From NCBI GenBank assembly GCA_965235115.1, contig OZ249436.1, positions 16,742,001-16,806,000 on the forward strand: a stretch of DNA of 64,000 bases, written 5' to 3'. Below, in pieces: positions 6,636 to 64,000 of this stretch. The notes beneath the pieces are model-generated. The model had not been told where the DNA came from and did not search any database. It saw only the letters and a program-made list of their open reading frames with translations. How positions within the stretch are numbered: position 1 is the first letter of the stretch; each line of letters begins with the position of its first letter. Source of the stretch: Laetmonice hystrix (lineage: Eukaryota). The position numbers and the translations under genes were made by a program.

Positions 6636-6835
6636 GCTGGAAGATTTCGATCCTCGGGTCAGATGTTGCTACTCGGCTCGCCGATTTCGAATCTCGGCTC
6701 GCCAATTTCGCTACTCCGGTCAAATGTTGCTACGCGGGTCGTCTGTAGCAACCACTTTTGTCATTTTTACCACTTTTGTCACAGGTCACCACTTTTGTCG
6801 CACAAAATGCCCACTTTTGTCACAGGTCACTACTA
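6636..6835 (+). repeat. Dispersed repeat (gctactcgg / cacttttgtcac motifs); inverted partner at 8470-8787
   Basis: Reverse-complement similarity to 8470-8787. Confidence 0.8.
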
Positions 6836-7002
6836 ATGCGTAGGCTCGCAAGTTATAAAATTTGAAATTATTAAAAGAAAAGGCCGGAGAAGGCGTGTAA
6901 ATGTATTTTCAACTTTTTCATTTCATTTTGAACGAAAGGGGATCCTCCCAGCCAGGTCTGCTTCGGGGCGCCGTGCATAGTAGTGGTAGTATAGAATGTA
7001 AG

Positions 7003-7140
7003 TGAGAGAGAGACAGACCGACAGACTGAGGGGAAAGAGATATAGGGAGGGCGATAGAGGGAGGGAGACAGAGAGGGAGAGAGAGAGAGGGAGAAAGGGG
7101 CAGAGAGGGAGGCATACAGAGAAAGATAGAGGGAGAAAAG
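7003..7140. repeat. GA-rich low-complexity tract
   Basis: Purine-rich run directly beyond the copy A terminator. Confidence 0.9.
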
Positions 7141-7510
7141 GTGAACATGGTCTTAGTCGACTAGATTCGTTCATCCTACCGTTCGAAGATCTGGCGTCTG
7201 AGACAACACGTGATAACCCAATGGTAGCCGCCATACGGAACTATGCCACAGATCGACCCACTGACGGGGAACGGGTTGTATTGCTACATCCCTTTAGAAG
7301 AGTCGTATCGCACTTTTCTCAGCCTTGCACCCTCCCGGCTCCAAGTGGATACTGTGTGACTCATCATACTGTCAGTGTTTGAACCATTAGCACGTGTTGC
7401 CAGACTACGACCGAACGTGGACCCATGCAAGCTCCTTCCGACCCATCAGCCAGTTCATGGGAGACAGACCCGAGTCTATCTAAGCGATACTTTCAGACGT
7501 GACCGTTCAC
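7136..7510 (-). ncRNA. Unidentified structured ncRNA gene, copy A (about 375 nt), putative type 3 Pol III transcript
   Basis: TATATAAAG begins 34-35 nt upstream. 5' GUGAAC-GGUC pairs with 3' GACC-AU-GUUCAC immediately before UUUU. No internal T4. Conserved blocks are shared with copies B and C. Confidence 0.7.
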
Positions 7511-7536
7511 TGTACATGTGACCAGTGGTTTCGTGG

Positions 7537-7850
7537 CTTTATATAGTGGGGAGGTCAAGCCGGACCTCCAGAGTGGTGTCCAACACAACCACATTGTTTT
7601 AGTAAGATAAAAACATTTTACAGGCAGCAACCAAAGCCCTGGAGGTGGAGATCCCGTCTGTAGCACTACAAATAGGGTGACCATCCATAGTTTCTTCCTG
7701 CAAGTTGATTTTCTTAAAAGATATTAATAAAAATGATAAAATCAGGGCAGCATGGACAATGAGGCACGTGACACCGACGTTCTGCATACGACAGTCGTCA
7801 CCAAGCGTCAAGGTCCACATAGTTACAGTCATTTATATACAAATTAGCAT
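7537..7850 (-). promoter_or_regulatory. Type 3 Pol III-like promoter of ncRNA copy A
   Basis: TATA 7545-7537; PSE-like ACACCACTCTGGAGGTCC 7579-7562; CACGTG 7765-7770; octamer variant ATTAGCAT/ATGCTAAT 7843-7850. Confidence 0.6.
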
Positions 7851-8469
7851 CTCACCTCCAAAACCAATTGCCTACGTGGCTGTATTTTAGTGGGTTCTTT
7901 ACCACAAAGCAATATAAGTGAACACCGACTTAAACATCAGAAGGTTTTCCAGGTAGAACAGTATTTCATATTAATCAAGACACCATTTCCACCGTCCTGT
8001 CTGTCCAAATGAAAACAAGGTGCTACAACCAAGTATGTCTGGCGGCGTCATACTGTGTACAGGTAAAACTGTTGACTGTAACTGACTGACTGACGTACAG
8101 AGTCACCGGCGTGAGGTGTGACAAACAAACCTGGACAATAGAAACCACTACCTGGTATTTATAGCACAGGAGTGTATTAGATCAGGGCGTATACTGGCAT
8201 ATCTTTCTCCTACTCTATTTACCACACAGATCTTGCTTACTTTCATACAGTAATTCAATAAATTATGCCCAGTGGTAAATTAATCACTTAATTATTGTTT
8301 GTTCATGAAGGAGTAAAAGTTTTAATAGCAACTAATGCAATGTGTGCCCCTAATTGCATGGATCTGTAGCTATATTCGTAAACCATCTCATTTCTGCCAT
8401 GCTGTCTTTTTTGGTCTTTACAAGTTTGACAAAACCGGTCAAAAATTATGACTAAAGTGATGTCCTTAA

Positions 8470-8787
8470 GAACGACAAAAGTGGGCGACGTTGTGACAAA
8501 AGTAGTGAGCTGTGACAAAAGTGGGCATTTTGTGTGACAAAAGTGGTGACCTGTGACAAAAATGGTAAAAATGACAAAAGTGGTTGGTACAGTCGTCGAT
8601 TTCGATCCTCGGCTCGCAGGTTTCGGTACTCGGGTCCAATGTCCCGAGTAGCGAAATCTGCGAGCCGAGTAGCAACATTGGACACGAGTACTGAAATCTG
8701 CGAGCCGAGGATCGATATCGACAAACCGAGTAGCAACATCTGACCAGAGTAGCGACATTTGTGACCCGAGGATCGAAATCCCCCAGC
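8470..8787 (-). repeat. Inverted copy of the 6636-6835 repeat
   Basis: gtgacaaaagtg and ccgagtagc motifs, the reverse complement of 6636-6835. Confidence 0.8.
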
Positions 8788-11700
8788 CGAGAATGTTTGT
8801 TCTTTTCCAGTCCAGTCAAAAATCACATTTGGACAGCTGCAAGGCCTCTATATACACTCACCTTTCAGAGTAGCCTACGTAGTAAGCCTTGCCGCCGCGC
8901 CAGCAAGGCTTACAGACAGCCGATGTAAATTCCTTGCCGGTCATACCACACACAGGCCAGACCACCACCGCTTGAACTGATCAACTCACTAGCATCCATT
9001 TATCTCGACAGTACTTGTGTGGAGTCCAGAAGCAGTGTTTCTAATAGTACAGAGTCAAATTCATGTCTATATAGATCACCCGCTTAACGGCGTTTTACCG
9101 GCCGCCATGTTGCCTTTGATATCCCAGCATGCATCTCTCCGACGGTCAACGAGCATTGAAATTTCTCGGTTTGAGAGATGTGACTGTCTTTATTGTGTCG
9201 CATCGTGCTTTTCCAGCTTGCAGATATGAGAGATAAGTTATTTTGAGTTTATTTATCAATATTTCATCAACATAATATGTTGATGTTGATGTATGCCATG
9301 AAAAGCCCTCCCTTGTCTCTATATTATAGAGACAAGGGAGGGCTTTTCATGGCAGACAGAGGATTTGTCCGGGTACGCTCGGAAATTCTGAACAGCGACC
9401 TTCGGCTCTGTACAGAGCACAGAGCCGAATTCTTTGGCTACTTTCAGAGTAGTGGTTGGAAATAAATGTCCCCCTATTCCAAGAAGTCATAAGTTGAACA
9501 TGACAACCGTGTCAAAATCACTGGCTTCAGCAGCGCAGCCATTTGTTGCTATAAGGGCTGGCCGGAAGTGACGTTCCAGGGCCCGTCTATTGCATGCCGG
9601 GGCTAGGCTAGACTTGGCCAAAGTAAAGGCAGCCGAGGCGGGTCGGCAACTTAACGGGGGTCAGTCCCACAGTCACAGTCACAACCAAACGCTACAGGTC
9701 CGCGGTCGGAGCCAGGGCCCGGCCCCCGGCCCAGTGAACCTGGGCTCCGTCAACATCGCACCTCCGAGCGGGACGAATTGAATGCAGGCGGCCGAAACCC
9801 ACGGCTGGAGCTTGCCCAGATCCGTGTCCACCCTGATATATCCCTTGACATCGGTAGGCTTAATTCCTATCCATTCCTCATCACTATGATCGATGGTTTT
9901 CGTTTATGTTCTAACAAATTTTGCTTATAAGCTGTCAACATTAACGCTACCTTTCGAATCGCTCAACGCAACAGGTGCGTCAGTTTTTCGTTCCTCCCAA
10001 ACTGGAGAGCAGTGGTCCGAGCATGCGCAGTGTGAGATTAGCCCAAGGAGCAGACGCTAATGGCGGCCACTAGCAGCGGAGTAGGTTCTAAGCAGGCTCC
10101 GGCACTAAAGTGCTTATATCTTAACTATTTGAACACCAATTGTGATCAAATCTTTTTTAAATTACTTAGAATATCACGGCCTGTGTGCCTGGCCTGTACA
10201 CATTGGCGGTGGACGTTTCTTTTTTAAAGAAACGAAAATAATAGAAATCTTGACAGGCAGCTAATAGGCAGGCATGTTAGGTACTTTTGGTTCACATTCT
10301 TCCGAAGGTAGCTATTGTATTAATATTAATATTAACCAATAATGTTGGCAGTGTTTAATTAGGGTACGTTTGAAAGTGACCTTGACCTTGAGACAAGATC
10401 AGATTCAGATTCCCCTACCCCCGAAAATCCCCCACAATTTGGTATTTTTCATGGTTTTTATCCCATTTAAAAAAACGCTTCAGCTCTGACCTCGGTGGTG
10501 GCCATATTGGATGTCACCAATATGTCCCCGTGGGCAATCATCTGACGAAACGTGAAAGGCCGAGAAGCAGAGAATAGTATTATAGAACCTTTGATTTTAG
10601 TGTTTTGATTGTGAAAAGAAGAAAACCATGCAGCACATGATAAGATGGTTTTATTGCCTTTGTACAAAATGAGTTGTTTCATCAACCATCCGCGTCAGAT
10701 GTTGATGAACCGTTGTCAGCCTTGAGGGTTCAGAGTCCGCAGACAACACGTGGTCTGCCTCCGTAATCGCTACTCATCGTCTTTAAACTTCTCTTTATAT
10801 ACAGTAATGACTCAATAAAATAATATTAGTATTGCATTATTATTATTATTTTCATTATTATAATAATTACAATTTTAAGCAATGACTCAATTGAAACAAA
10901 TATTATTGCATCTCCCCTTGATCGTCCACTCCAAAAACTGCCCCCAAGCGGACCTGGGCTGAACTGACAGCCAACATTCAATTTAAGATAATAATAATGC
11001 TATTACAGGGCCGTAGCCTGAAGGGGGTCAAGGGGGACAACTGCCCCCCTAGGATTTCCAGTTAAAAAAAATTGGGCCTCATATTGACACCTGGGGTGGT
11101 TTGACTAAGCCCCAAAGACGTCTTTGAACTGGTCGCTGAGCCAAAGAGGTCTTTGCGGCGACGGGTGTTTCAGTTAAGTCAGCATGAACAGGACAAACAT
11201 CTTTTAGACAAATTCACCGTCATATCTTTGTCAGGTATCTCACCCGACCTGTTTGAACTTTCTCTTCTCTCCGTGTCAGGATCTACTGGCCATAACCCCC
11301 GCCACACCGCCACCCAAAATGCAACATACTTTAAAGGAACTCCTTTTATTTTCAACCGTTTGGCTAATTCTATTGGGCAATAAATGGGCACGAGTGGTTG
11401 TTTTCTATTGACCTTCCTTGTGAAGGCCAGTTTTACCGTCGCCAGCGTGAGTCTGAGGTGTTCAGCTGGGGCAAGCTTCTAAAGGCATTGTCTTCTGCCG
11501 TTCTGCAAGAGATTGATTAAAAAATATGGCATTTCGTAAAAAAAAGTTAGGTGATCCTTTCTTTCATGGGATTTAGTAGGGCTGAAACGATACACTTATG
11601 CCACGATAAGTTACGTATCACGATACAACAAACGATACGATATATCTCACGATAGTTTTCCAGTTGTATAGTACACTTGATTTATGCTTAGACTGCCACA

Positions 11701-11866
11701 GAGAATCAGGACTCAGAAGCTTGGGTCAAAATACTGTGTAATGTATTGTGAGCTATTTCAGCGACCGATTGCACCTGAGGAATCAAGTTCTGGGACTAGA
11801 GTGTCCCAGGACACTTTTTATTATCATTTGTATCGAGCTGAGAGTAACTAAAAATTCAGAGTACTT

Positions 11867-12181
11867 AAAAATGGGGAATTGATCCTGGAGACTTGGTCCA
11901 AGTCCTATACCGTTCGAAGATCTGGCGTCTGGAGAACACACGATAGCCCATTGAGAGTCAACTGATTTGGAACCTTGCCGCAGATTGAGCCCACTGACGG
12001 GGTATGGGTTGTATTGCTACATCCCTTTAGAAGAGTTGTGTCACACTTATCGCCGAGTTACACCCTCACCTCTCCAAGTGGACACATACCAACCGAGCCG
12101 AACTCTTCGTACTGTCAGGTTTTCAACAGCGTCTGTTTCCAGACTACGACCGAACGTGGAGACCGGCGCCTCGCTGTTCCC
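11867..12181 (-). ncRNA. Unidentified structured ncRNA gene, copy B (about 315 nt)
   Basis: TATA at 12215-12207, PSE-like box 12249-12232, octamer ATGCAAAT 12499-12506. 5' GGGAA pairs with 3' UUCCC before UUUUU. No internal T4. Confidence 0.7.
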
Positions 12182-12206
12182 TACATTACTACAGTGGTGG
12201 TAATTG

Positions 12207-12506
12207 CTTTATATATCCCCCTCCAGGTCGAGGACCACAGAAAGGGTGTGGACTAAACTCAACGTTATGCTAGGATAAAAACAGAGTTCCGGCAAAATTA
12301 GAAGTATTCAAGTACTACAAGTCTTAGGTAAAGATTAAAAGCAAATTTTGATTGACATTTTACGTCTGTAAAATTTGTTTTAGTGAACAATTACATGAAC
12401 AGATCATATACATTTCTGCATTTTGAAAAACCACCCAGCAAAATCGCGACGTGAGCGCCCTCTCTAATCACGTGAGCATGTCTTGATACCGATTTGATAT
12501 GCAAAT
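12207..12506 (-). promoter_or_regulatory. Type 3 Pol III-like promoter of ncRNA copy B
   Basis: TATA 12215-12207; PSE-like ACACCCTTTCTGTGGTCC 12249-12232; CACGTG 12469-12474; perfect octamer ATGCAAAT 12499-12506. Confidence 0.65.
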
Positions 12507-12837
12507 AAGAGTGCCAGTCGCAGGGACAGACTATTATTAGACGCTCTATTGTTTGGGTTTGTTGTTTTGCGACTCACTGACGTGTGAAGAAATGTCAGTA
12601 GCCTTTGCCTGCATGAAACATCGAGCAGGCCGATGTGGATCTATAAGTATATATTTAGCCATCAGGTGTGAAGCTTGCCATGCTACAGGATCGGGTACAT
12701 ACTCTCCCACCCAAAAGAAATTAAAAGAAAAGTTCATTTCCCTACATTCTGTGAACACCAATGTACAATTTCCTGGTGTCGAACTATCACATGTGGCCGT
12801 AGCCTGCGAGGGGGGCAAGGGGGGCAACTGCGCCCTG

Positions 12838-13131
12838 GCCCCAGTTTCAGAAAGGCTCTAAGCAGCAAGCTTGAAGCTAAGCAGGGCTACGGTGGCCCAC
12901 GAGCACACAGACACTTTAACTTTATACATTGATGTTCGTGGATATTTTCACATCATTGGAAATATCACCATGGTGAAAATATTACCACCACGTTTTAATT
13001 ATTATTTCTGTGAAAATATCGACGAAAATCAATCTAGAAAGATAAAAACAGTAACGGTTTTTGTCCCTATGGGCTGCAGTAGCTCTGCTTAGCTTAAAGC
13101 CTGCTGCTTAGAGCCTTTCTGAAACTGGGCC
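12838..13131. mobile_element. Harbinger-like MITE nested in a CAGGGCCGTAGC-type element
   Basis: TIR ..cccagtttcagaaaggctctaagcagca / tgctgcttagagcctttctgaaactggg..; 3-bp TSD CTG. The reconstructed empty site resembles 11037-11060. Host element ends are seen at 11007, 12795, 13265 and 24793. Confidence 0.8.
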
Positions 13132-13750
13132 CTGGGATTTCCATTTTTTGTAACCCAGACTCCCAGCTCGACTGGCGCAATGACGCGCTGTCACGCGTTA
13201 GGCCTATCTGGTTAATGTTCATAGGACACTGCCCCCCTGGGATTTTTGGGCATGCTACGGCCCTGGAAGTGATAGGCCTACAAAATCCAACTCATTCAAT
13301 CTGATCTTCAACTGTATTTTAATTTAACGAATTCAGTAATGACGCAGAAAGAGCGCTATAAAATGTCAGCTAGTCAACATTTAGACGCGGAAAGAGCTCT
13401 ATAAAATGTCAACTATAATCAACATTTAGACACTGCAGTATTAACTGCCGATTTATGGACACGTGTCGAATCTTATGACTACTCTCATTACCCTGATCTA
13501 TCACCGTTTGAAGAAGGATATAACATGGTGACGAAGACATGCCAATCGATAAATTAGCCACCACACTCATCATTCAAAAAGTTAATCTTTTCACAGTCCG
13601 TTTGGAATCTAGCAGTTCTTTGGCAGATGAACGATAAAACATTACTAATTTTTACAACGCCCCCTTTCATCCTCATAACATTCAAGGAATAGATCTGAAA
13701 AGGCACTGGTATACAAAAGTTACTCCACATGCCGTTCCGTGTTTCACTTT

Positions 13751-15377
13751 TTAAAAGTAGGTGGACTTCTGTGCATAAAGTCCCCCGGCCTTAGCGGCAC
13801 CGTGAGAGTTTGTTTGCGGTTCTCCTGTGTGGTCCTCACTGGATGTACCTGAGTCGGCGGACTCCTCCCGTATAGAGAGCTTCTCCCGCCGGGAGGGCCT
13901 CCGGACAGACACTGGAGCACGGACATCCCGGGTCTGACTAGCGGCCGTGAAAGCCTGGCGTACGAGGTGACTAGAAAATGCCCCGGGGCCGTGAACACCC
14001 GAGTTATCAGAGAAAGAACCTTTCTTGTTCCCCACGGCAACGGTTGGTCCGGTACCACTAGAGGTATCGGAGAGAGAACCTTTCTTGTTCCCCACGGCAA
14101 CCGTTGGTCCGGTACCACTAGAGGTATCGGAGAGAGAACCTTTCTTGTTCCCCACGGCAACGGTTGGTCCGGTACCACTAGAGGTATCGGAGAGAGAACC
14201 TTTCTTGTTCCCCACGGCAACCGTTGGTCCGGTACCACTAGAGGTATCGGAGAGAGAACCTTTCTTGTTCCCCACGGCAACGGTTGGTCCGGTACCACTA
14301 GAGGTATCGGAGAGAGAACCTTTCTTGTTCCCCACGGCAACCGTTGGTCCGGTACCACTAGAGGCATCGGAGAGAGAACCTTTCTTGTTCCCCACGGCAA
14401 CACTAGAACTACTTTGTGAAGGCAATTCCTTGCCTACAGAATCAGTGACCCGTCCATGGACACTTGATTTGTTAGAAGATACTGTTTTTTCGTTCAATGT
14501 GGCAACACCTGTCTTTTGATCCATTAAATTGTGAGCGGAGGCTCGTCTTTGGTCTCTGGAACTATCGCAGGCTGTTGACTTCTTGACCTGAAAACCAACA
14601 CAGTTCTGGTTGCCAGGATTTGTAAGAGATGTCGAGCCTGGGTCGACTGCAGCGACTCCTGATGGGACAGTTCTACACTGTTTGGGAGGTACATCCTGAC
14701 TGGAGGCACTGGGATGCACTGAACCAGGCAGAGGGGTTTCACTCAACCCGCAGTTGGCCTGAGCCGAGTCCCTGACCAGGTCATGGAGACCCCTCCTCCC
14801 CGACTGACCTGTCGGTTTGACGCTCGGTGAGTACTCCGGGTCACCGTCTATTTCAAAGCGTTGAAACTCACCCCTGCTGGTGACCGTGTGGTTCGGGCCA
14901 CGGCCGGCAGGGGCCCGCTGATGCGCCTGCGCAGTGGCGTCATGACGTCCCAATGTGACGTACTGTCTCGCCTGTGTCGTGGCGTTCTGCTCTAGTCTCT
15001 CCGGAGACGGTGACAGCACACTGATGGCGGGGACCTGGTTCAACTCACCCAGCCCTGAAACAGCCTCAACATCCGGGACTCCAGTCTCCTCTCTCAGAAC
15101 ACTGGGACTGCGCAGGTCCTCCACCTGCAGCTCCAACCCGCCGGCCTCGGCCGGGATGCCATGTTTACCTCCATTACAAGCACCATTATTGACTGAAGGA
15201 CGAGAAGCGCCAACCTCAATGCTCTCAACCCGTCCCTTGTGAAGCAGTCTGGTCAATCTTGTCGATGATACCCGCGACGACCTTGCCTCGCTGTTTGTTC
15301 CCGGATGAAACCCCAACTTGCGCTGAACTGCCTGAAGCGCCCTCTGCAGGCAGGGGACTACTGACGAGACGCCCCGC
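13751..15377 (-). CDS. Probable alternative terminal exon of the cadherin (about 540 aa low-complexity tail ending KSTYF*)
   Basis: Strong acceptor gtgttttcttccccag at 15378-15393. It is phase 2, matching the phase-2 donors at 22324, 24957 and 26090. 1.6 kb open frame; ends in a class I PDZ-type motif (T-Y-F); candidate ATTAAA at 13323-13318. Assignment to the cadherin is inference. Confidence 0.6.
14007..14401. repeat. 60-bp tandem repeat (about 6.5 copies), in frame in the putative terminal exon
   Basis: Encodes VAVGNKKGSLSDTSSGTGPT on the minus strand. Confidence 0.95.
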
Positions 15378-16586
15378 CTGGGGAAGAAAACACGGCGACA
15401 TACATTAGAACGTGGACACCCTGTCACCTTGCTTTGTACAATTACAGCTATTGACAGTGGCCACACCTACATGACTATACCTTTACTGCACATAAATATA
15501 CTCCTCTAATTAGCGCAATGTCCTTCCTTTAAAACTTTCCGTTTTACTCCTGAAAAAAGCAGTGATTCAGGACAGAATGGTGTAGTGAAGGGTTACGACA
15601 ATATAGAAGATTACTACCACATCATGGGGTTTTCACAAGGGGTGACGGCGTGCTCCTAACAGTCCCTCCCCCGCGATGAAGGGGTCGGTAGTATATAACA
15701 AGGGGGTTGGAACAAACTACCGGTATCCCCTTTTTTCAAACTCCTGTCAATAATAATCTCCTATAGGTTCCCTCGATCTCCCAGGGTCTGAGAGATCTAC
15801 GGTACGTCAACCACCAATAGGCCTACTACTCTACGTCAACATGGGCCGCTTAAAAACTATATAACGTTAATTCAACACGCTTTAACCCATCCTTGACCAA
15901 CAACCCCGTCATTTGCTTTTAAACGGCCCATATCAAACTCTACTACCTAGCAATAATGTTAGTACTAAAAGCAGTTCTTTCTATAATGATTAAATCTGGT
16001 CTAATCTAGGAGGCAGTGTGCAACTTAGTTGTATTAAAATTTGGGCCTCATACTAATTCTGTAATTATACTTGAGTGAAACAAAAGAATTTGGGAGTTGG
16101 AAAATCAGTGTATTTCACGATGTGTTTTCACTTTGAGCCCAGTTCCTTGTCACGATGTTAGAGTGGCCTATAGAAGTACTCACTCAAGCAAGCTGTGTAT
16201 ACCATCAGTAACCTCGGCTGCATGAAGGCCCTCTATCAGAGAGACACGCACGACCTGGCTACAGAAAGCCCTCAGACAAAAGGTCCTTCATACAGCCAGA
16301 CCGTGCGTGTCTCTCTGAGGGTCTTCACACGGCCAGGCCGTGCGTTCCTCTCTGAGGGCCTTCACACAGCCGAGCGTCATACCAACTCGCATACACACAG
16401 CTCGGCTGTGTGAAGGCCCTCAGAGAGGCACGCACAGCTCGGCTGCAGGGGGGCCCTCAGGGAGACACACACAGCTGAGCTGTGTGAAGGCCCTCAGGGA
16501 CAGCTGTGACAGCATTATCAATTTACTGGGGAAACCTTGCCAACGCCTCCCCCCCCCCTCAACCCAGTGAACCACTGACACCAGAT

Positions 16587-17008
16587 CCTGACATCTGGGT
16601 CCCTCCACCATCTGTACCCGCCACCAACTCGGCCTGACATCTGGGTCTCTCCACCATCTGTACCCGCCACCAACTCGGCCTGACATCTGGGTCTCTCCAC
16701 CATCTGTACCCGCCACCAACTCGGCCTGACATCTGGGTCTCTCCACCATCTGTACCCGCCACCAACTCGGACTGACATCTGGGTCCCTCCACCATCTGTA
16801 CCCGCCACCAACTCGGACTGACATCTGGGTCCCTCCACCATCTGTACCCGCCACCAACTCGGACTGACATCTGGGTCCCTCCACCATCTGTACCCGCCAC
16901 CAACTCGGACTGACATCTGGGTCCCTCCACTATCTGTACCCGCTACCAACTCGGACTGACATCTGGGTCCCTCCACCATCTGTACCCGCCACCAACTCGG
17001 CCTGACAT
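16587..17008. repeat. 46-bp minisatellite just after the ETEL stop codon
   Basis: (cctgacatctgggtccctccaccatctgtacccgccaccaactcgg) about 9 copies. Confidence 0.95.
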
Positions 17009-17038
17009 GTGTACCTGCGTTTGGAAGCTTAGCAGAGG

Positions 17039-20000
17039 TCAAAGTTCAGTCTCGCCTATTTCATACTCATTGAGTCCTGAAACAACAATATGATCTTAGA
17101 AAGTGCCACACTGCAAATACGGCAACAACAGCAACAAAGAAAACGCAACAACAGGCAACAACAGCAACAGTAAAGGCAGCCAGAATCACCTCCATGTTTT
17201 GGGTGCATCGTCGAATGTACGCTCCTCAATATAATTATTCATAATCGGACTTTGAAGTTGAGGATTGCAAACCGTGCCTTAATAAGGTTTATACTTAACT
17301 CTGCATAATTGTATTTATACCACGCGCACATGTTCTAGTCATATTACATGTGTCCGCATACCGTTCAATACCATCAATACCAGCAAACCTTCCCCACAGT
17401 GGCGCTCGACACCTTAACCTCCCTGGGAACCTCAGGTAACCAGGTCTGTACTCACCAGGCGTGCGTCCGAGTGGGCGTCCGATACCAAACCAGACTACCA
17501 AACTGATAACCGACATCCTAATAGTAAAACTAAACTGGAGCGTACCATACGAACGACGTATGTTACTCGGTGATGTCCCCAGGTTCACTTCAGACTCGGA
17601 GAAAATGATTTCAAAAGTATTCATGAAGGGATTTCATTTACTTGGCCGCCCCCGACCTCTGAAACTGCCCGAACTGCACCCTTTAATGATCTCTCAAAGC
17701 GTTTACAATGTTCGTATCGACGTTCGTATCGGGACGTCCCGTTTTACGTTAGGAGTCGGGCAGCCATCTGAGGACCTCGTACCCAAGGTGGTCAAGGTGA
17801 CTCTTTGGTTAACGAATTTCTACAGGTCATAGTTGGTGTCAACGAAGGAAGAAGAAGAACCAGGCCACGGTAAGACGGCAGAGAGATAAAGAAACCAGCT
17901 GATATTACTACTCTACTATTCTACAGGACAGAACCATCATCGAGGTGTGGGTCAGTGTCAAGAATACTGAATGGTCCTGAAAGTGAAACCGTAACTAGCA
18001 GCAAACTGAACTGGTCTGGGAAGGCAGAGAGTGGTATTAGCTGGTGTTACCTGCAGGGCTGCGCTGGGGTGAGTAATTTCGGTTACTTCGGCCACTGAAA
18101 GATGAGCGGGTCTACGGTTAGTACTCTCTGTCACGTGTTACCTCATATAGTGTCTCTAGTGGCCGCTAGAGGGCACAGGTCCCCCTGGCGGCCACTACAG
18201 ATGCGACACATTTTACGTCTGAAGGTCATGCAGAAACTGCAGGAAAGGTTGTGCTGGTCTTGCGTTTGAGGGTTATTGTTGTTCTTCCCTGCTTTCCTTT
18301 CTTTTTTTCCAAACGTTGTATGGCCATCAGATGAAACGGTCCTGTGTGTAATCACGTGACAACAGAGCCAACACCAGGTGGCGTCCTTGTTTCCGAACAT
18401 GTGCCGGCGGTTGCTGAATTCAATGACTGGAGGTTAAGGCACTGGGTCCACAGGGCAATACGTCAAATCAAATTCCACCCTGCTGAGTTGGATGGCTGTA
18501 GATTTAAATCTAGGTCAAAAGGAAACCATCCACAATTGGATAATTTAGGCCTATTTAAATTTGACAGTTATGTATAGGTATATTTGGTTAATGTTTTAGT
18601 GCCCCTCCCCCCGCCCCCACTCCCCGGAGGTAGTTCAGGCCTGGATGCGTAACCACAGCCTTATTGGAATTTTGTAGTTTGTGTCCTTTTGAGTACGTCG
18701 TACTTTCCTAACTTAAACTAAGGTCGATGTTTTCTCTGTAAAACGGTTCATGTCAGTGACGGCTGGGAGAGGAGCACAGACATAGGCCTATGACGTGATC
18801 ACGTCAGTGCCGCCAATGTTACCGAACACCTGTCTATCTCTCAGTTGACCGATCCAGGACAGGTGAACATAGACGCCGAGAGCCTACATACAGTCAGCAA
18901 TATGTTAGTGACAGTTAGTTCTAATTAAAGACAAGACCGGCTTGCCTTAGCTTGGAGTTAGTGATGGGTGACCCACCCATGGCTTGGAGTTAGTGATGGG
19001 TGACCCACGTGATATAACCCATGACTTGGAGTTAGCGATGGGTGACCCACGTGGTATAACCCATGGCTTGGAGTTAGTTATGCGTCACCCACGTGGTATA
19101 ACCCATGGCTTGGAGTTAGTGATGGGTCACCCACAGCGGCGGGTGTCATCGTGCTAAATGTCTACAATTAGTTCTCTATAATCACCAACCCGAACCAAGA
19201 GCGCTGACACGAGGCAGCACTGTGACCAACACCATTACTGTTATAACCAGTTCTCCCGTCACGCGCCACTGTCACGGCCCGTCACGCGCTGCCCTGACTG
19301 ACGCTATGACGTCACCGGAAGCTGCACACGGCTGTGTGCGCCTCGTCTGGTGTGGTCACTTACGGATAATACTGTCCGACTCCACCGGACTGCAGGGCTC
19401 CCCCGGCCCGTAGGCCAGTTCGCCGGCTACCACCAGGTCCTGGGGAAGGGCGCCGTTCAACCTCGGGAAGGACGAGCCAATGGTCAAGTCAACCACATCC
19501 TCGTCATCATCAAAGTGTTCCTCCTCCTTCTCACCGCCGGTCAGGAACAGCACGGGAGGCGGGATGACGACAGGCGTAGGGTCAAAGGTCAGGGTGCGCC
19601 TGATGACCCCGTCCTGGACCAAGCGTTCCACTCTTCTCAGGTGTGGGCTGCGCAAGACATAACAGATACGTCACTTCCGGTGTGTACTATTTCCCCTCGC
19701 CAGGTCCAGCGGATTACCTTTAGTTTGCTGTCACTGGGGCGGAGACGTGACTTTGAGACGATCGGCCCTGTTCTGAACAGGGGAACCAGGACATTCGCAT
19801 CTTGTTCTCATACCTAATCTAAGTACACGCCCGAGCAAACCAGTCACACCTTTGTGTGAGACGTTAAGTATACACCTGAACCTCTTACATGACCCACAGT
19901 GGACCTCTTACATGACCCACAGTGAACCTCTTACATGATCCACAGCGATGTCCTTAAATCTAAAACTGCAGTTAAAATCAGACACCGGGAACCACATTCG

Positions 20001-23000
20001 TCACCCTGGGAACATAACACGTAACCAATCAGTCCCGATCACCATGTGACGTCATCACCGGAAACACGTCACCGATCCTACGTCATGCCGTGGCTTCAAA
20101 GCAATCCTCTACTGAAAACAAGGATTAACAGAAATACGTTCCTGGGGAAAATAAAACATAATTCTACCACAGCAGAAAGAGGCTTACTTTCGTAAAAACC
20201 TGAGGGTTTGGGAACATGCATACTTGTGGGTTGGATATCTTGTGAGGTGTGCTCATGATGGGGAAACCTAGTCGGCATGCCTGTCGCATGCACTAGGTGG
20301 CGCTGCGGATAAAAAGCCCGTGAGAGGGCAGAACTGACGAGTTACCTGTGGACGTACCGGCCCCGTGCGTCTTCCTGTGGAAGATTGGGAGAGAAGGCCG
20401 GTGACTGAGCTATCAAAGACTGACAGTGAGCTATCATAGACTGACAGTGAGCTATCATAGACTGTCACTGAGCTATCAAAGACTGACAGTGAGCTATCAT
20501 AGACTGACAGTGAGCTATCATAGGCTGACACTGAGCTATCATAGACTGTCACTGAGCTATCAAAGACTGACAGTGAGCTATCATAGACTGTCACTGAGCT
20601 ATCATAGACTGACACTGAGCTATCATAGACTGTCACTGAGCTATCATAGACTGTCACTGAGCTATCATAGACTGTCACTGAGCTATCATAGACTGTCACT
20701 GAGCTATCATAGACTGACACTGAGCTATCAAAGACTGACAGTGAGCTATCATAGACTGACACTGAGCTATCATAGACTGACACTGAGCTATCAAAGACTG
20801 ACAGTGAGCTATCAAAGACTGACACTGAGCTATCATAGACTGACACTGAGCTATCATACACTGTCACTGAGCTATCATAGACTGTCACTGAGCTATCATA
20901 GACTGACAGTGAGCTATCATAGACTGTCACTGAGCTATCAAAGACTGACAGTGAGCTATCATAGACTGTCACTGAGCTATCATAGTCTGTCACTGAGCTA
21001 TCATAGACTGTCACTATGCTATCATAGACTGACAGTGAGCTATCATAGACTGTCACTGAGCTATCATAGACTGACAGTGAGCTACCATAGACTGTCACTG
21101 AGCTATCAAAGACTGACAGTGAGCTATCATAGACTGTCACTGAGCTATCAAAGACTGACACTGAGCTATCATAGACTGTCACTGAGCTATCATAGACTGA
21201 CAGTGAGCTATCATAGTCTGTCACTGAGCTATCATAGACTGCTACTGAGCTTTCATAGACTGTCACTGAGCTATCATAGACTGCCACTGAGCTATCAAAG
21301 ACTGACAGTGAGCTATCATAGACTGTCACTGAGCTATCATAGACTGTCACTGAGCTATCATAGACTGTCACTGAGCTATCAAAGACTGTCACTGAGCTAT
21401 CATAGACTGTCACTGAGCTATCACAGACTGACAGTGAGCTATCATAGACTGACACTGAGCTATCATAGACGGACACTGAGCTATCATAGACTGTCACTGA
21501 GCTATCATAGACGGACACTGAGCTATCATAGACTGACAATGAGCTATCATAGACTGTCACTGAGCTATCATAGACTGACACTGAGCTATCATAGACGGAC
21601 ACTGAGCTATCATAGACTGTCACTGAGCTATCATAGACTGACACTGAGCTATCACAGACTGTCACTGAGCTATCACAGACTGTCACTGAGCTATCATAGA
21701 CTGTCACTGAGCTATCATAGACTGACACTGAGCTATCATAAACGGACACTGGGCTATCATAGACTGTCACTGAGCTATCACAGACTGACAGTGAGCTATC
21801 ATAGTCTGTCACTGAGCTATCATAGACTGACACTGAGCTATCATAGACGGACAAGGGGCCATCCTAGTCTGACTCTCGGCTAGCATAGACCGACATTGGG
21901 CTATCAAGGAACCAAACTGTGTTGTCATAGACTGATACTGGGCTATCATGGACCGGGGTCACCAAAGCTACAATATTATAGCTGTAGTTTGGTGGGAAAT
22001 CACCTGTTTGTGGATGGTCACCCTGACGTGGACACGAGTTCCATGCTGAACAACTAATGTTATGTGTTAGGTTTACATACATCAGACAGTTATTAGGTTT
22101 TGGTATCACAAACAGCAGGCTCCATTCTGACATACATGTATATTGAACACAAATGACATTTATACCATGGCAATGACAACAAAGTGCGTGTCTGAATAAA
22201 ACAGAGCTTCACTGAGTTTCTGAACAATCCAACATTTTCATCAAATGGCTATCCATTAATAGATCAGATTTTTCTCTCGACTCAGAGCGGTTGTCTGCTC
22301 TAATTTCTGGTGCCAGTACTCACGCATAGGTGTCGCCTCCATACGGTGAGACCCAGCCGGACCCGTCAGCCTGTCCGCGCCCGAGCTGGGAGTTAGCGCC
22401 TGACTGGTTGTCTACCACTATGATCGCCTTACCCTCGTCATCACTGTAACAGAGGCACACGTTCTCACGTTAAACACTGCCACTGTAACACAGACACATG
22501 TCAAGTTCTCACGTAAAACACTGTCACTGTAACACAGACACACTTAAAGTTCTCATGTTAAACACTGTCACTGTAACACAGACACACGTAATTTTCTCAC
22601 GTTAAACACTGTCACTGTGACACAGACACATGTAAAGTTCTCACGTTAAATACTGTCTTTGTAACACAGACACACTTAAAGTTCTCACGTTAAACATTGT
22701 CACTGTAACACTGGCACACGTAAAGTCCTCACGTGTGTCTGTGTGTCACTGTATACACTGGCACACGTAAAGTTCTCACGTTAAGCACTGTTACTGTAAC
22801 ACAGACACTTGTAAAGGTCTCACGTTAAACACTGTCACTGTAACACAGATATACGTAAAGTTCTTACGTTAAACACTGTCACTGTAACAGACACATACAA
22901 TTCTCACGTTAAACACTGTCACTGTAACACAGACATACGTAAAGTTCTGACGTTAAACACTGTCACTGTAACACAGACACATGTAAAGCTCTCTCGTTAA

Positions 23001-26000
23001 ATACTGTCACTGTAACACTGGCACACGTAAAGTTAGACTCGATCACTGTAAGAAAGACACCCACACCCACACTCAAAAGTAACTTATGCTCTACTGTTTG
23101 TTAAACTGGTCAGCAACAATAAAAAAACACGCCTTATTTCGTGGATGTAAAGTTACACAGGGGAAAAGGGTGCCAGGAAACTGTAAAAAGACAACATATT
23201 GTACGAAGACCATTTTAAATTCTAGAGTGTTTAAGGCTAAAAGTTCATGCATAATAGCTATTTAGCAAATCAAAGCTCTACAAGTGCGGGTTTAGCATGC
23301 TGATTATAATCAACAGACACCGCCGAACTACTACTACATACATATTACACGCATGACAGCAAGGCGCCTCGGCCGTTTGTAAAATCAGTGCTGACACTAG
23401 TCACAATTCTTTGATTTCACGGACGTCAGTGTCCAGTTTGGTGGAGATTTAAAACCCAGCTCTGACGGTTTTATAGCGACCCCTGGCGGTCAGCTTACTC
23501 TCATGTTACGGTTACAATCCAGATTTAAAAAATTATTGTTGGGCCCCGATATTGACACTGAACCTTGACTGAACCAATCTTTGCTTTTTACTATGATCTC
23601 TAGAAACTTCTGGAAGGAAGTGTTGAAAAGGTTTAATCATCTTAATGTGTTTTCCATACTGGAGTTTCCTTCTACATGTGCTTGAAATATGCACAATAAT
23701 ATAAGTTTGCGAGTGTTGCCCAGTCGGTAAAACTACTGACACTGTACGAACCATCTAGTCCTAGCCCTCTCTATATTCATGTCTGGCGTGGGGGGGGGGT
23801 GCTATCCCTTCCAGCGCCCGATGGCACCTAAGATGATCCCGGAGGAATCAGGTTCTGGGGCTAGAGTGTCCCAGGACACTTTTTAGTATCACTTGTACCT
23901 AAAAATGGGGAACTGATCCTAGAGGCATGGTCCAAGTCCTACCGTTCGAAGATCTGCATGGCGTCTCCAGAACACACGATAACCAATTGAGAGACAACTG
24001 ATTTGGAACCTTGCCGCGGATTGAGCCCACTGACGGGATACGGGTTGTATTGCTACGTCCCTTTAGAAGAGTTGTGTCACACTTATCGCCGAGTTACACC
24101 CTCACCTCTCCAAGTGGACACATACCAACCGAGCCGAACTCTTCGTACTGTCAGGTTTTCAACAGCGCCCTTCCAGACTACGACACCTGACGTGGAGACC
24201 GGTGCCTCGCAGTTCCCTACATTTCTACAGAGGTGCAAATTGCTTTATATATCCCCCACCAGGTCGAGGACCACAGAAAGGAAAAAGGAAATTAAAAGTA
24301 TTCAAGTACTACAGGTCTTAGGTAAAGATTAAATTCTAATTTTGATAGACATTTTAAGTGAACGCCCTCTCCACATTGCAGTCACGTGTCCATGTCTTGA
24401 TACTCACTTGATATGCACATAAGAGTGCCAATCGCAGGGATAGACTATTGTTAGACTCTCTATTGTTGGGTCTTTTGTTTTGCGACTTACTGACGTGTGA
24501 AGAAATAAAAGTAGCCTAGCTTTGCCTGCATGGCACATCGAGCAGGTCCCTGCCGATCTATATGTATACGCCATCAGGTGTGTAGTTAGCTGTTAGTAAA
24601 GTATGAGTGCAATGAAATGCCTGCAACCACCGGAGCTGCAAGCGATACTACGGGGTCGGGTACATATCCCCCCCCCCCCTCCTCCCGAAGAGAATTGAAA
24701 GAAAAGTTCATTTTCCTACATTCTGAGAACACCAATGTACAATTTCCTGGTGTGGAACTATCTCATGTGGCCCTGATATATATTCTTAATGCCAGGGCCG
24801 TAGCCTGCGGCCGCGGGGGGAGGGGGGTGCAGCTTGCTAGTCGTCAGGGTTAGGCTCCTACTCTGCGCGGTTAGAACAACATATCGGTTGCGGTGACTGG
24901 GGCAGTATTAGGCAGGGTTAGGGGGACTGTTCGACAGTCTGAGTAGGAACACTTACAAACTGACAAACTCAGTTTGAGCTGACGAGTTGGAGGATGAGCC
25001 GCTGTTCTCGGACGAGAGGTAGATACTGATTTTCTGGGTCTCCCGCTCCTTAGTCTGTGCCGACGGGTAGACTACGCTGGGGCTGTCACTGCAAGACAAC
25101 ACCACATCAAAACACACCATGCTGGGCTGTCACAGCAAGACAACACCACATCAAAACACACCATGCTGGGCTGTCACTGCAGGACAACACCACATCAAAA
25201 CACACCATGCTGGGCTGTCACTGCAGGACAACACCACATCAAAACACACCATGCTGGGCTGTCACTGCAGGACAACACCACATCAAAACACACCATGCTG
25301 GGCTGTCACTGCAGGACAACACCACATCAAAACACACGGTACATCACGTTAGTCCAATTGCCGACATTTGCGACTGGAAACTTGGTACGGCTCGGTCGCT
25401 GGGAAGATAAACCAGCGGATCGGCGTCGTATAGTTTTAGGATGATAGATCGCTGGGCAACCTCACCGACTGCGCGCAATGGGCAGTCAGTAACGTTGGCG
25501 ACTGGACTACGTCCATGTAAAAATATAATAATGCCAACCCAAACTCTGGTCACAACATCATGAAACTTAAGTGAGAAACCAACAACATGGTCATGCAGGT
25601 GAGAAGTGGGGGTTTATGGATTGTGCGCGGGTTTTCTGGATTGTGCGCGGGTTTTCTGGATTGTGCGCGGGTTTTCTGGATGGTCCGTGAGTTTTGGACA
25701 ACAAAACGTCACAACGTGATATCTCCACCATTTGTAACGTGGGGATTTTTCAGACCGATTACCAAACTGAGGGGTGTAACAAATGTAAACCTTACAAAAA
25801 GTCCCTGGCAGCATTGAATGAGATAAGACATTTCAAACATCAAAAAAGCTGATATAATTAAATCTGTCATAATTTCAGTGTTGGTGTGATTTATAATCTC
25901 TCTGAAAAACATTCCAGAAAACTGCTCCCATATGACCGGCTCATTCTCAAACATACTTAAACATTTACTCGCGGCTGAGTGAGTAAATACACGACATTCA

Positions 26001-63708: not shown

Positions 63709-64000
63709 GAGTCAGACCTCACGCAATCAGAACAGAAACAGCGACTACAGGATAGGCTTACATAGTTACACTAGCATATTGGACATCAGACTGTGACACT
63801 GTGGAAGGACATCTTAGTATGTATGACTCCATCCAGGTTTAGCATGTCAGTATCTGAAGGCGCTGTTTATAGAGATGCGGGAGTAGTACGAGAGTATGTA
63901 TAGCCACACAGATACGAGTAATACGGCAGTATGTTAGTATGGCCACGAGATACGAGTAGTACGGCCGTATGTTAGTATGATCAGAGATACGAGTAGTACG

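What the first reader, a model, noticed from the sequence alone, without database searches (positions are those of the whole stretch)
7136..24420. Three-copy family of an unrecognised ~315-375 nt structured RNA gene with U6/7SK-type (type 3 Pol III) architecture
Seen: minus-strand units at 7510-7136 (A), 12181-11867 (B) and 24217-23901 (C). They share blocks such as CCACGUUCGGUCGUAGUCUGG, CUGACAGUA, UCCACUUGGAG, GAGGGUGYAA, CUCUUCUAAAGGGAUGUAGCAAUACAACCC, CCGUCAGUGGG and CAGACGCCAGAUCUUCGAACGGUA (C carries changes in several). Each has TATATAAAG starting 34-35 nt upstream of a G that base-pairs with the 3' end, and the first T4-5 run falls right after that closing stem. In A, similarity to B/C is confined to the RNA body and promoter boxes, which suggests selection rather than a simple repeat. 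Established: PSE + TATA + octamer + oligo-T is the type 3 Pol III gene design (U6, 7SK, RNase P/MRP, Y). Inference: a functional ncRNA family; I cannot match it to any of those RNAs.
Basis: partly seen in the sequence, partly recalled or inferred. Interest (0 to 1): 0.92.

Follow-up and report, generated by a model that had tools for sequence, protein, structure and literature searches.

The report
Transposon-carried Pol III structured RNA gene
The three look-alike RNA genes are real and have the same promoter design as this animal's own U6 and 7SK genes, but they belong to roughly a thousand copies carried inside two unrelated jumping-DNA families, which is an unusual cargo for a DNA transposon.

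Summary
Units A, B and C, their shared blocks, the TATA box 34-35 nt before a G, and the first T-run after the closing stem are all present.

The promoter reading is strongly supported. All 8 host type-3 genes examined (4 U6, 7SK, MRP, 2 RNase P) carry ACACC at -64 to -69, and 5 also have a strict TATA motif 32-34 nt downstream. A and B match 7SK's geometry, 34 nt from ACACC to TATA.

No Rfam family matches. The genome has its own 7SL, U6, 7SK, MRP and RNase P elsewhere.

It is not a three-copy family. A 26-nt core motif occurs 969 times in the 627-Mb genome. Each unit lies inside a non-autonomous DNA transposon:
- A-type: 1848 bp, 91-bp inverted ends, 5-6-bp duplications.
- B/C-type: about 2.26 kb, 15-bp inverted ends, 5-bp duplications.

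The two families share only the RNA gene.

The RNA body diverges 2-4 times more slowly than its flanks and shows compensatory pair changes.

Best reading: a Pol III RNA gene cassette kept as transposon cargo, function unknown. Nothing similar was found earlier in this scan.

The parts
6744..8591 (-). A-type non-autonomous DNA transposon (1848 bp) that carries unit A
   Evidence: The ends are shared with 11 further loci. The TIRs are mapped. DNA contigs join 6737->8592 and skip 1854 = 1848 + 6 nt.
6744..6834 (.). A-type terminal inverted repeat, right arm (91 bp, with repeated CCACTTTTGTCAC motifs)
   Evidence: (9 motif hits against 0.15 expected).
8501..8591 (.). A-type terminal inverted repeat, left arm
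   Evidence: 95.6% identity to the other arm.
6738..6743 (.). 6-bp target-site duplication of the A insertion (GTCGTC on the + strand); its twin lies at 8592-8597
   Evidence: the empty-site joints have 6 letters that fit either side.
7562..7579 (-). Unit A proximal sequence element (ACACCACTCTGGAGGTCC, ACACC at -69)
   Evidence: It has the same position and core as the host 7SK and RNase P PSEs.
7537..7545 (-). Unit A TATA box (TATATAAAG, starts at -35, 34 nt after the start of ACACC)
7136..7510 (-). Unit A predicted RNA, 375 nt including the terminal T-run. It has about 60 extra nt at the 5' end relative to B.
11006..13265 (-). B-type non-autonomous DNA transposon (2260 bp) that carries unit B
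   Evidence: Common ends are seen in the loci. The 15-nt TIRs lie at 11006-11020 and 13251-13265.
12232..12249 (-). Unit B proximal sequence element (ACACCCTTTCTGTGGTCC, ACACC at -68), nearly identical to the host U6 PSE
12207..12215 (-). Unit B TATA box (starts at -34)
11867..12181 (-). Unit B predicted RNA, 315 nt including the T-run
23839..24772 (-). Fragmented, end-truncated B-type copy that carries unit C (matches B element positions 468-1492 in pieces)
23901..24217 (-). Unit C predicted RNA (317 nt). The TATA box is kept at 24243-24251, but the ACACC half of the PSE is lost, so this is probably a dead copy.

Best explanation
SHOWN. The three units are copies of a repeat with about 970 copies. 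The repeat is a complete snRNA-type (type 3) Pol III transcription unit with these parts:
- a host-type PSE, with ACACC at -68/-69;
- a TATA box exactly 34 nt further on;
- a G start 34-35 nt after the TATA start;
- a 315-375-nt body free of T4 runs;
- a T4-6 terminator.

This cassette sits as internal cargo, about 1.08 kb from one end, in two unrelated, ORF-less TIR/TSD DNA transposon families. The A-type is 1848 bp with a 91-bp TIR beginning TGTAGCAACC and 5-6-bp TSDs. The B-type is about 2.26 kb with a 15-bp TIR CAGGGCCGTAGCCTG and 5-bp TSDs. The two families share nothing but the cassette.

INFERRED. SNAPc/TBP/BRF2-type factors recruit Pol III as at the host U6 and 7SK genes. The transcript ends in oligo-U just after a 5'/3' closing stem. 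It folds as a long irregular stem that closes a multi-branched core. That core holds a small hairpin, a long hairpin with an invariant 12-nt apical loop GUGAGGGUGYAA, a GCAA-tetraloop hairpin and a compound 3' hairpin.

The cassette has been kept through turnover of subfamilies (A, B1, B2, B3), with compensatory pair changes and 2-4-fold slower divergence than its flanks. The RNA, not merely the DNA, has therefore been under selection in the lineages that kept transposing.

My most likely mechanism, at about 40%, is a trans-acting structured RNP made by the elements that favours their persistence, for example a decoy or scaffold for a host or transposase protein. The cassette would have been exchanged between, or captured separately by, the two families. 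What the RNA binds is unknown.
For: Copy number:
- The B body has 1597 first-look candidates. 40 were scored, and all 40 are 96-100% identical.
- The A body has 1313 candidates. 40 were scored and gave 41 matches: 40 near-full-length at 98-100% identity and one 47-nt partial at 89%.
- The 26-nt core motif gives 969 hits at up to 2 mismatches, against 0 for the reversed control.

Transposon context:
- Copies share common ends.
- For B, 6 of 9 copies with both canonical ends have perfect 5-bp TSDs.
- For A, 6 independent insertions were examined: 1 has a perfect 6-bp TSD, 2 have perfect 5-bp TSDs, 1 matches 5 of 6, and 2 are unclear.
- A precise empty site skips 1854 = 1848 + 6 nt.
- There are no ORFs of 80 aa or more wholly inside either element outside the RNA region, and no Pfam remnants.
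- A and B share only the cassette.

Promoter:
- 8 of 8 host type-3 genes have ACACC at -64 to -69. A strict TATA motif 32-34 nt downstream was found in 5 of them; the other 3 show TATA-like boxes by eye. A and B have the same 34-nt geometry as 7SK.
- 48 of 55 sampled units keep this geometry and 53 of 55 end in T4 or longer.
- There are 0 T4 runs in the bodies, against 26 in 1473 nt and 33 in 1945 nt of the rest of the elements.

RNA-level selection:
- On 14 sequences, 89% of cells are paired, against 37-43% when partners are slid.
- 12 pairs change on both sides, against 3-6 when slid.
- The covariation score is 0.119, against 0.03-0.04 when slid.
- The G-C to C-G swap in the GNRA hairpin (8 against 6 sequences) was absent from the three sequences the model was derived from.
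- G-U variants fit only the minus strand.
- In 12 copies chosen only by the 26-nt motif, divergence from the young consensus is 3.1% in the RNA (127/4075, motif excluded). It is 7.35% upstream (650/8842) and 13.4% downstream (269/2003).
Against: - The B RNA's folding energy is not unusual: z = -0.70, and 23 of 100 shuffles fold as well.
- Covariation rests on about four lineages from one genome. Related sequences can exceed shuffle controls without any structure. 'Pairs with a change on both sides' was reached by 41 of 500 shuffles. The two outermost helices of the model are only 59% paired because A's 5' extension is poorly aligned. RNAalifold on the 14 sequences prefers a different pairing for part of block 1.
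- The 75-nt promoter stretch as a whole is not better kept than the flanks in old copies: 6.9% against 7.35%.
- An intact gene in cis is not needed for spread. B copies at 3 loci carry the same ~850-bp insertion splitting the PSE from the TATA box. An array of at least 16 copies appears, from its one sampled unit (L073), to carry a 3'-truncated RNA.
- No autonomous partner, protein partner or target was found. No complementarity of 11 nt or more exists between the RNA and its own element.
- The samples are biased. The loci were chosen by RNA identity.
- No relative outside this genome could be examined.
Confidence: 0.6

Rival explanations
1. It is a lineage-specific host small RNA gene, comparable to rodent 4.5SH or primate snaR. 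Two transposon families captured it independently. The function belongs to the host, a few loci matter, and the ~970 transposon copies are by-products of dispersal.
For: The cassette boundaries between A and B coincide with a complete gene from PSE to terminator, as expected from capture of a cellular gene. A's PSE is most like the host 7SK PSE and B's is most like the host U6 PSE. This genome keeps other Pol III genes (U6, 7SL) in multi-copy arrays. Spread does not need an intact gene in cis.
Against: All 78 copies examined lie in A- or B-type element context, and none is TE-free. These are 54 loci plus the motif sample, 12 variants, and the 3 window units among them. Structure-preserving change continued inside the transposon sublineages B1, B2 and B3. 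Capture alone would not produce that.
Confidence: 0.2
2. It is a neutral hitch-hiker. A once-functional Pol III gene was picked up and is now inert cargo. Its apparent conservation comes from the youth of the copies, gene conversion and sampling.
For: Most sampled copies are young, at 94-100% identity. Folding energy is not exceptional. The promoter stretch decays like the flanks. Defective versions still multiplied.
Against: A and B are about 20% diverged in the body, yet they keep long identical blocks, the same promoter geometry and bodies free of T4 runs. Everything else in the two elements is unalignable. Compensatory changes are present. RNA divergence is 0.42 times the upstream rate and 0.23 times the downstream rate in motif-ascertained copies.
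Confidence: 0.14
3. It is a known type-3 RNA (7SK, RNase P, RNase MRP), or 7SL or telomerase RNA, that is too diverged for Rfam.
For: The size (315-375 nt) and promoter type fit these RNAs. Helix GUCUGG/CCAGAC looks a little like RNase P helix P4. That is a resemblance recalled from memory. An 11-nt complement between A and the host RNase P RNA was reached by 2 of 100 shuffles, in one of 10 comparisons.
Against: There is no Rfam hit at gathering thresholds on the window, and only chance hits with E above 1 on A and B. The genome has its own 7SL (266 bits), 7SK (58 bits), MRP (99.7 bits) and RNase P (143-145 bits) elsewhere. There is no local similarity to the host 7SL or 7SK beyond shuffles. 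No telomere-template-like stretch was seen by eye.
Confidence: 0.03
4. It is a SINE or another retroposed Pol III transcript.
For: The copy number is high and the unit is a Pol III transcription unit.
Against: The upstream PSE and TATA box are copied along with the body in 48 of 55 units. A retroposed transcript cannot carry its upstream promoter. The repeat boundaries lie about 1.08 kb upstream and 0.4-0.9 kb downstream of the RNA, at TIRs with TSDs. There is no A-rich or LINE-like tail. No tRNA, 7SL or 5S head was detected by Rfam.
Confidence: 0.03

Closest known systems
Host type-3 Pol III genes (U6, 7SK, RNase P, RNase MRP)
   Same: They share the PSE core ACACC at -64 to -69, a TATA box about 34 nt downstream, a start about 30-35 nt after the TATA start, and an oligo-T terminator. 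The size class is the same as 7SK and RNase P.
   Different: There is no sequence or covariance-model similarity. There are about 970 copies instead of 1 to a few tens. Every copy examined lies inside a TIR/TSD transposon.
Lineage-specific high-copy Pol III RNA genes: rodent 4.5SH/4.5SI and primate snaR
   Same: They are young, lineage-restricted Pol III RNAs carried on repeated genomic units. For PMC10137851, PMC7279448 and PMC3045588 I saw only the search listing and the start of the abstract. That 4.5SH sits in a roughly 4-kb unit repeated hundreds of times is recalled, not from a call.
   Different: Those genes use internal A/B boxes with TATA-like boxes and derive from 7SL, tRNA or Alu. 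This gene has a pure upstream PSE + TATA design, no detectable parent RNA, and is dispersed by DNA transposons.
Gene capture (transduplication) by DNA transposons, such as Pack-MULEs (recalled, no call)
   Same: Non-autonomous TIR elements carry a host-type gene segment between their ends and amplify it.
   Different: Captured segments are usually fragments of protein-coding genes that decay. Here a whole Pol III gene with its promoter and terminator is carried by two unrelated families and evolves under RNA-level constraint.
SINEs, including SINEU with snRNA-derived heads (PMC4494074; listing and start of abstract only)
   Same: They are high-copy Pol III-related repeats derived from small RNA genes.
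   Different: SINEs spread by retroposition of the transcript and rely on internal promoters. Here the upstream promoter is part of the repeat, and the mobile unit is a 1.85-2.26-kb DNA element.
Dada DNA transposons (PMC8869645; abstract and passages read)
   Same: They are DNA transposons tied to small Pol III RNA genes, with 6-7-bp TSDs.
   Different: Dada elements insert into U6, U1, tRNA or 5S genes and split them. Here the RNA gene is intact and lies inside the element. The insertion sites seen (GCATA, AATAC, AACAG, GATCC, CTTTG, GTCTT) show no common target.
Newt satellite 2 and similar repeats driven by an snRNA-type promoter (recalled, no call)
   Same: It is a repeated element that carries its own PSE-type promoter and makes a structured RNA.
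   Different: Satellite 2 is a tandem satellite encoding a hammerhead ribozyme. No ribozyme family matches here, and the carrier is a TIR transposon.

Membership tests
Type 3 (snRNA-type) Pol III gene | Proximal sequence element at about -55 to -70, matching the organism's own PSE | tested here: met
   ACACC lies at -69 (A) and -68 (B). 8 of 8 host type-3 genes have ACACC at -64 to -69. B's PSE matches the U6 PSE at 16 of 17 positions by eye. C has lost it.
Type 3 (snRNA-type) Pol III gene | TATA box at a fixed distance downstream of the PSE and about 25-35 nt before the start | tested here: met
   TATATAAAG starts 34 nt after ACACC in A and B, as in 3 U6 genes and 7SK. The start G is 34-35 nt after the TATA start, as in 7SK (34).
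Type 3 (snRNA-type) Pol III gene | Termination at the first run of four or more T, with none inside the body | tested here: met
   There are 0 internal T4 runs in A and B, against 26 in 1473 nt and 33 in 1945 nt elsewhere in the elements. 53 of 55 units end in T4 or longer and 3 of 55 have an internal T4 run.
Type 3 (snRNA-type) Pol III gene | Distal enhancer or octamer | tested here: not met
   No octamer lies within 400 nt upstream of A or C. There is one at -325 of B. None was found upstream of the 5 host type-3 genes checked, so it is not part of the design in this organism.
Type 3 (snRNA-type) Pol III gene | Transcription by Pol III and a discrete transcript | not testable with these tools
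   No run on record as RNA was offered for this organism.
Non-autonomous class II (TIR) DNA transposon | Terminal inverted repeats at constant ends in many copies | tested here: met
   The A-type has 91-bp TIRs, and 351 genomic matches to its terminal 24 nt. The B-type has the 15-nt TIR CAGGGCCGTAGCCTG at both ends.
Non-autonomous class II (TIR) DNA transposon | Target-site duplications and a precise empty site | tested here: met
   For B, 6 of 9 copies have perfect 5-bp TSDs. For A, the window copy has a 6-bp TSD and 2 other copies have 5-bp TSDs. Contigs skip exactly element plus 6 nt. That empty site may be allelic or from a paralogous copy of the flanking repeat.
Non-autonomous class II (TIR) DNA transposon | An autonomous partner encoding the transposase, and assignment to a superfamily | tested here: inconclusive
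   No ORF or Pfam remnant lies inside the elements. A 4.56-kb A-type copy (L089) holds only ORF-poor inserted DNA. The superfamily is not assigned.
SINE | Spread of the transcript alone (no upstream promoter in the copies), an internal promoter head and a 3' tail | tested here: not met
   The upstream PSE + TATA is copied in 48 of 55 units. The repeat ends lie at TIRs about 1 kb away. No tRNA, 7SL or 5S match was found.
7SK / 7SL / RNase P / RNase MRP RNA | A match to the family's covariance model | tested here: not met
   None matches at E of 10 or less on A or B. The host's own genes score 58-266 bits elsewhere.

The most novel reading that the evidence does not exclude
The cassette is a mobile 'RNA gene module' of transposons. 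It would be a Pol III-made structured RNA that is a working part of DNA-transposon biology in an animal, for example a cofactor for transposition or a decoy against host silencing. It would be shared or exchanged between unrelated element families because it raises their success.
Probability: 0.3. Interest if true: 0.85.

Novelty: new variant of a known kind. Interest (0 to 1): 0.62.

Why it matters
Cut-and-paste DNA transposons of animals are thought of as carrying a transposase gene or nothing. Here about a thousand copies from two unrelated families carry a complete, host-style Pol III gene for a structured RNA of no known class, and the RNA shows signs of selection.

If the RNA serves the elements, it would be a new kind of transposon-encoded function in eukaryotes. 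It would also be a natural example of a U6-type expression cassette spread by transposition.

If instead it is a host RNA, it is a new abundant small RNA whose gene family was built by transposons.

Either way it is directly testable with a northern blot and one Pol III inhibitor experiment.

For genome annotation, it warns that a promoter-complete ncRNA 'gene family' seen in one window can be transposon cargo.

Tried and rejected
- **Rfam.** The whole window at gathering thresholds gave 0 hits. A and B in E-value mode gave only chance hits: ROSE_3, sR7, snoU31b, mir-982, and a 25-nt piece of bacterial RNase P at E 8.9.
- **SRP-like idea.** By eye the RNA resembled the 7SL S domain. This was rejected: the host 7SL is elsewhere and Smith-Waterman scores against host 7SL and 7SK do not exceed shuffles.
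- **Guide-RNA idea.** There is no complementarity or identity of 11 nt or more between either RNA and the rest of its own element. Complementarity to host U6, 7SK, 7SL, MRP and RNase P does not exceed shuffles, except one 11-nt match between A and RNase P (2 of 100 shuffles, 10 tests, not kept in B).
- **Coding idea.** A and B differ by indels of 1, 2, 4 and 10 nt. The antisense ORFs have no Pfam match.
- **Expression.** No RNA holder was listed. The only four runs are contig sets of unrecorded kind from one sample and one study. Laying them gave depth and joints only.
- **Depth.** Depth is about 57-77 in the unique stretch, 131,000-311,000 over the RNA bodies and 8,000-60,000 over the element flanks. 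The tool warns that summed contig depth is not a copy number, so I use it only as a rough sign that the body is the most repeated part.
- **Relatives elsewhere.** Exact scans with a 22-mer and a 20-mer found 0 matches in metagenome contigs. The 22-mer found 0 in viral contigs. These collections hold little animal DNA, so this says little.
- **Earlier notes of this scan.** Nothing was found by sequence or by words.
- **Literature.** (keywords; two sequence strings) found no report of a DNA transposon carrying a type-3 Pol III RNA gene, nor these sequences. The library is CC-licensed PMC plus bioRxiv only, and supplements were not searched.
- **Autonomous partner.** Pairing TIR hits on the listed contigs pointed to a 4.56-kb copy. 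It is an A-type element with 2.6 kb of ORF-poor inserted DNA.
- **Long ORFs in the window.** ORFs at 13751-15466 and 53702-55078 are translations of tandem repeats.
- **Unbiased diversity test.** The diversity profile is biased by how its copies were chosen, and I do not rely on it.
Full report
**Observation**

A MAFFT alignment shows the listed blocks identical in A and B, with C altered in several.

TATATAAAG starts 35 nt (A) or 34 nt (B, C) before the proposed G. The bodies of A (370 nt) and B (310 nt) contain no T4 run. The rest of the two elements has 26 T4 runs in 1473 nt and 33 in 1945 nt on the same strand. So the first T-run does fall right after the 5'/3' closing stem.

Outside the body and promoter boxes, A is unrelated to B and C.

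**Copy number and context**

The window lies in a 627-Mb, 35-contig genome.

- The 315-nt B body has 1597 first-look candidates. All 40 that were scored are 96-100% identical.
- The 375-nt A body has 1313 candidates. The 40 scored candidates gave 41 matches: 40 near-full-length at 98-100% identity and one 47-nt partial at 89%.
- A 26-nt core motif occurs 969 times at up to 2 mismatches, and 0 times for the reversed control.
- Many hits sit in tandem arrays with periods of roughly 2.6-7.4 kb.

Aligning the flanks of the fetched loci shows that each unit lies inside a repeat with constant ends.

*B-type.* In the window this element is 11006-13265 (2260 bp). It begins and ends with the inverted 15-mer CAGGGCCGTAGCCTG. 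Of 9 copies with both canonical ends visible, 6 have perfect 5-bp target-site duplications (GTCTT, GCATA, AATAC, AACAG, CTTTG, GATCC). One matches 4 of 5, and two show none, including the window copy.

*A-type.* In the window this element is 6744-8591 (1848 bp). It has 91-bp inverted ends built from repeated CCACTTTTGTCAC motifs. The window copy has a 6-bp duplication. Of five other independent insertions, two have 5-bp duplications, one matches 5 of 6, and two are unclear.

DNA contigs of the only available sample join 6737 to 8592 and skip 1854 = 1848 + 6 nt. This is a precise empty site. Because the flank is itself repetitive, the empty site may be an allele or a paralogous copy.

Neither element holds an ORF of note or a Pfam remnant. 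Unit C sits in a fragmented B-type copy truncated at both ends.

blastn between the two whole elements finds only the RNA body, 179 nt at 80% and 27 nt at 96%. They are therefore two unrelated non-autonomous TIR elements with one shared cassette.

Every one of the 78 copies I examined is in A-type or B-type context.

**Promoter**

I fetched the genome's own type-3 genes: U6 arrays, one 7SK, one MRP and two RNase P.

All 8 genes examined have ACACC at -64 to -69. A strict TATA motif 32-34 nt downstream was found in 5 of them. The other 3 show TATA-like boxes by eye.

| Gene | ACACC position | TATA start |
|---|---|---|
| A | -69 | -35 |
| B | -68 | -34 |
| host 7SK | -68 | -34 |

B's PSE (ACACCCTTTCTGTGGTC) differs from the U6 PSE (ACACCCCTTCTGTGGTC) at one position. 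A's PSE (ACACCACTC...) is most like that of 7SK. C has lost the ACACC half.

Among 55 sampled units, 48 keep ACACC and TATA 34 nt apart, 53 end in T4 or longer, and 3 have an internal T4 run. That sample was chosen by similarity to the RNA.

No octamer is part of the design. None lies upstream of the 5 host genes checked.

The type-3 reading is therefore well supported at the sequence level. Transcription itself could not be tested.

**What the RNA is not**

- No Rfam family reaches its threshold in the window. In E-value mode only chance hits appear.
- The host 7SL (266 bits), 7SK (58 bits), MRP (99.7 bits) and RNase P (143-145 bits) lie elsewhere.
- Local alignment of A and B against host 7SL and 7SK does not exceed shuffles.
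- It is not a SINE. The upstream promoter is part of the repeat, and the repeat ends are TIRs about 1 kb away.
- It is not coding. A and B differ by indels of 1, 2, 4 and 10 nt.

**Structure and selection**

RNAalifold on A, B and C gives a model with these parts:
- a 5'/3' closing stem;
- a long irregular stem formed by blocks 1 and 7;
- a multi-branched core.

The core holds a small hairpin, a long hairpin with an invariant 12-nt apical loop, a GCAA-tetraloop hairpin and a compound 3' hairpin.

A gap-pattern search then found 45 further variants of the variable hairpin. I fetched 12 of them. All belong to the A or B lineages. They include older B sublineages in which the tetraloop hairpin has G-C swapped to C-G.

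I counted the model on 14 sequences:

| Measure | Model | Partners slid |
|---|---|---|
| Cells paired | 89% | 37-43% |
| Pairs changed on both sides | 12 | 3-6 |
| Covariation score | 0.119 | 0.03-0.04 |

G-U variants fit the minus strand only.

Several cautions apply:
- The model was derived from three of these sequences.
- The lineages are few and related.
- 'Pairs with a change on both sides' was reached by 41 of 500 shuffles.
- The two outer helices are only 59% paired because A's 5' extension aligns badly.
- RNAalifold on the 14 sequences prefers another pairing for part of block 1.
- The folding energy of B is ordinary, with z = -0.70.

For an estimate of constraint with little ascertainment bias, I used 12 copies chosen only by the 26-nt motif. 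Their divergence from the young A consensus is as follows:

| Region | Divergence |
|---|---|
| RNA, motif excluded | 3.1% (127/4075) |
| Upstream | 7.35% (650/8842) |
| Promoter stretch | 6.9% (62/898) |
| Downstream | 13.4% (269/2003) |

In B-type copies present in both the RNA-ranked and the flank-ranked lists, five have flanks at 86-89% identity and RNA at 96-98%.

**How it most likely works**

*Shown:* the cassette has the full sequence anatomy of a host-style type-3 Pol III gene. It is cargo of two unrelated DNA transposon families that amplified to hundreds of copies each.

*Inferred:* Pol III starts at the G and stops at the T-run. The RNA folds as above and ends in an oligo-U tail next to a terminal stem.

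The body stayed constrained while subfamilies turned over and while everything around it diverged beyond alignment. I therefore think the RNA has, or recently had, a function that mattered in the transposing lineages. My favoured reading, at about 40%, is a trans-acting RNP that favours the elements.

Several points weigh against a strict need in cis:
- Three B copies at different loci share an ~850-bp insertion that splits the PSE from the TATA box.
- An array of at least 16 copies appears, from its one sampled unit (L073), to carry a 3'-truncated RNA.
- The RNA has no complementarity to its own element.

The main rival, at about 20%, is a lineage-specific host RNA gene captured twice. Next, at about 14%, is inert cargo.

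**Comparison with what is known**

It works like U6 and 7SK genes at the promoter. It works like captured genes in non-autonomous DNA transposons as to spread. It resembles the high-copy, lineage-specific Pol III RNAs (4.5SH, snaR) as to population.

It is not a member of any Rfam family, not a SINE, and not a Dada-type insertion. Dada elements split small RNA genes, whereas here the gene is intact inside the element.

Keyword searches and sequence-string searches of the held library found no description of such a cassette. That library is partial.

**Limits**

- There is one genome, no RNA data and no relatives to compare.
- The transposon superfamilies and autonomous partners are unassigned.

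**Verdict**

The promoter and the 'unknown structured RNA' reading stand. The 'three-copy gene family' does not: it is transposon cargo in about 970 copies. I rate it a new variant of known kinds, of moderate to high interest, and testable with simple experiments.

Noticed in passing
L009, L022, L023 (B-type copies at three genomic loci): An ~850-bp MITE-like element lies inside the TATA box of the cassette. Its inverted ends begin CGGGTGGATAAAAAAAACGCCCCGAAC, and it has a 4-bp ATAT duplication. It separates the PSE from the TATA box. The three copies are 90-92% alike, so the composite seems to have kept transposing.
   Followed up: partly
L011 (one unit of the array on contig 6): A different 1.1-kb insertion, with inverted ends TCCTGCACC...GGTGCAGGA, lies 12 nt upstream of the RNA start. 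Neighbouring units of the same array lack it.
   Followed up: no
genome contig 1, 62,498,348-62,564,721, and other places listed: The transposon copies often stand in tandem arrays with periods of about 2.6-7.4 kb, longer than the element itself. At least 16 units lie in this array. The one unit sampled (L073) has the RNA truncated at about position 266.
   Followed up: partly
window 20257-21900, 50174-52300, 62324-63800: There are long minisatellites with 21-bp, 51-bp and 21-bp units. They and other repeats create long spurious ORFs, for example 13751-15466 and 53702-55078, whose translations are plain repeats.
   Followed up: yes
window 33066-49134, minus strand: These are exons of a cadherin-repeat gene: Pfam Cadherin at E 7e-65 in ORF 47719-49134, with weaker hits in four more ORFs. 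ORF 36575-37378 also hits CxC1, a cysteine cluster found with KDZ transposases (30.3 bits, cut-off 26.9).
   Followed up: no
window 24793-24807 (+) and 45955-45969 (-): Two further matches to the B-type 15-nt end stand alone, without a matching partner at element distance. They may be ends of broken or related elements.
   Followed up: no
window 8689-10235: The DNA between elements A and B is itself highly repeated in the sample's contigs, with summed depth up to about 260,000 against about 57-77 for the unique stretch 10236-10898. Element A is therefore inserted in or next to other repeats.
   Followed up: no
genome contigs 10 and 12 (7SL), and 2, 12 and 21 (U6): The host's 7SL and U6 genes stand in tandem arrays with periods of about 2.2 kb and 1.5-1.7 kb.
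   Followed up: no
window 12833-13136: The window's B element carries an internal inverted duplication of its positions 130-433 at 74% identity. Most other copies lack roughly positions 143-428.
   Followed up: no
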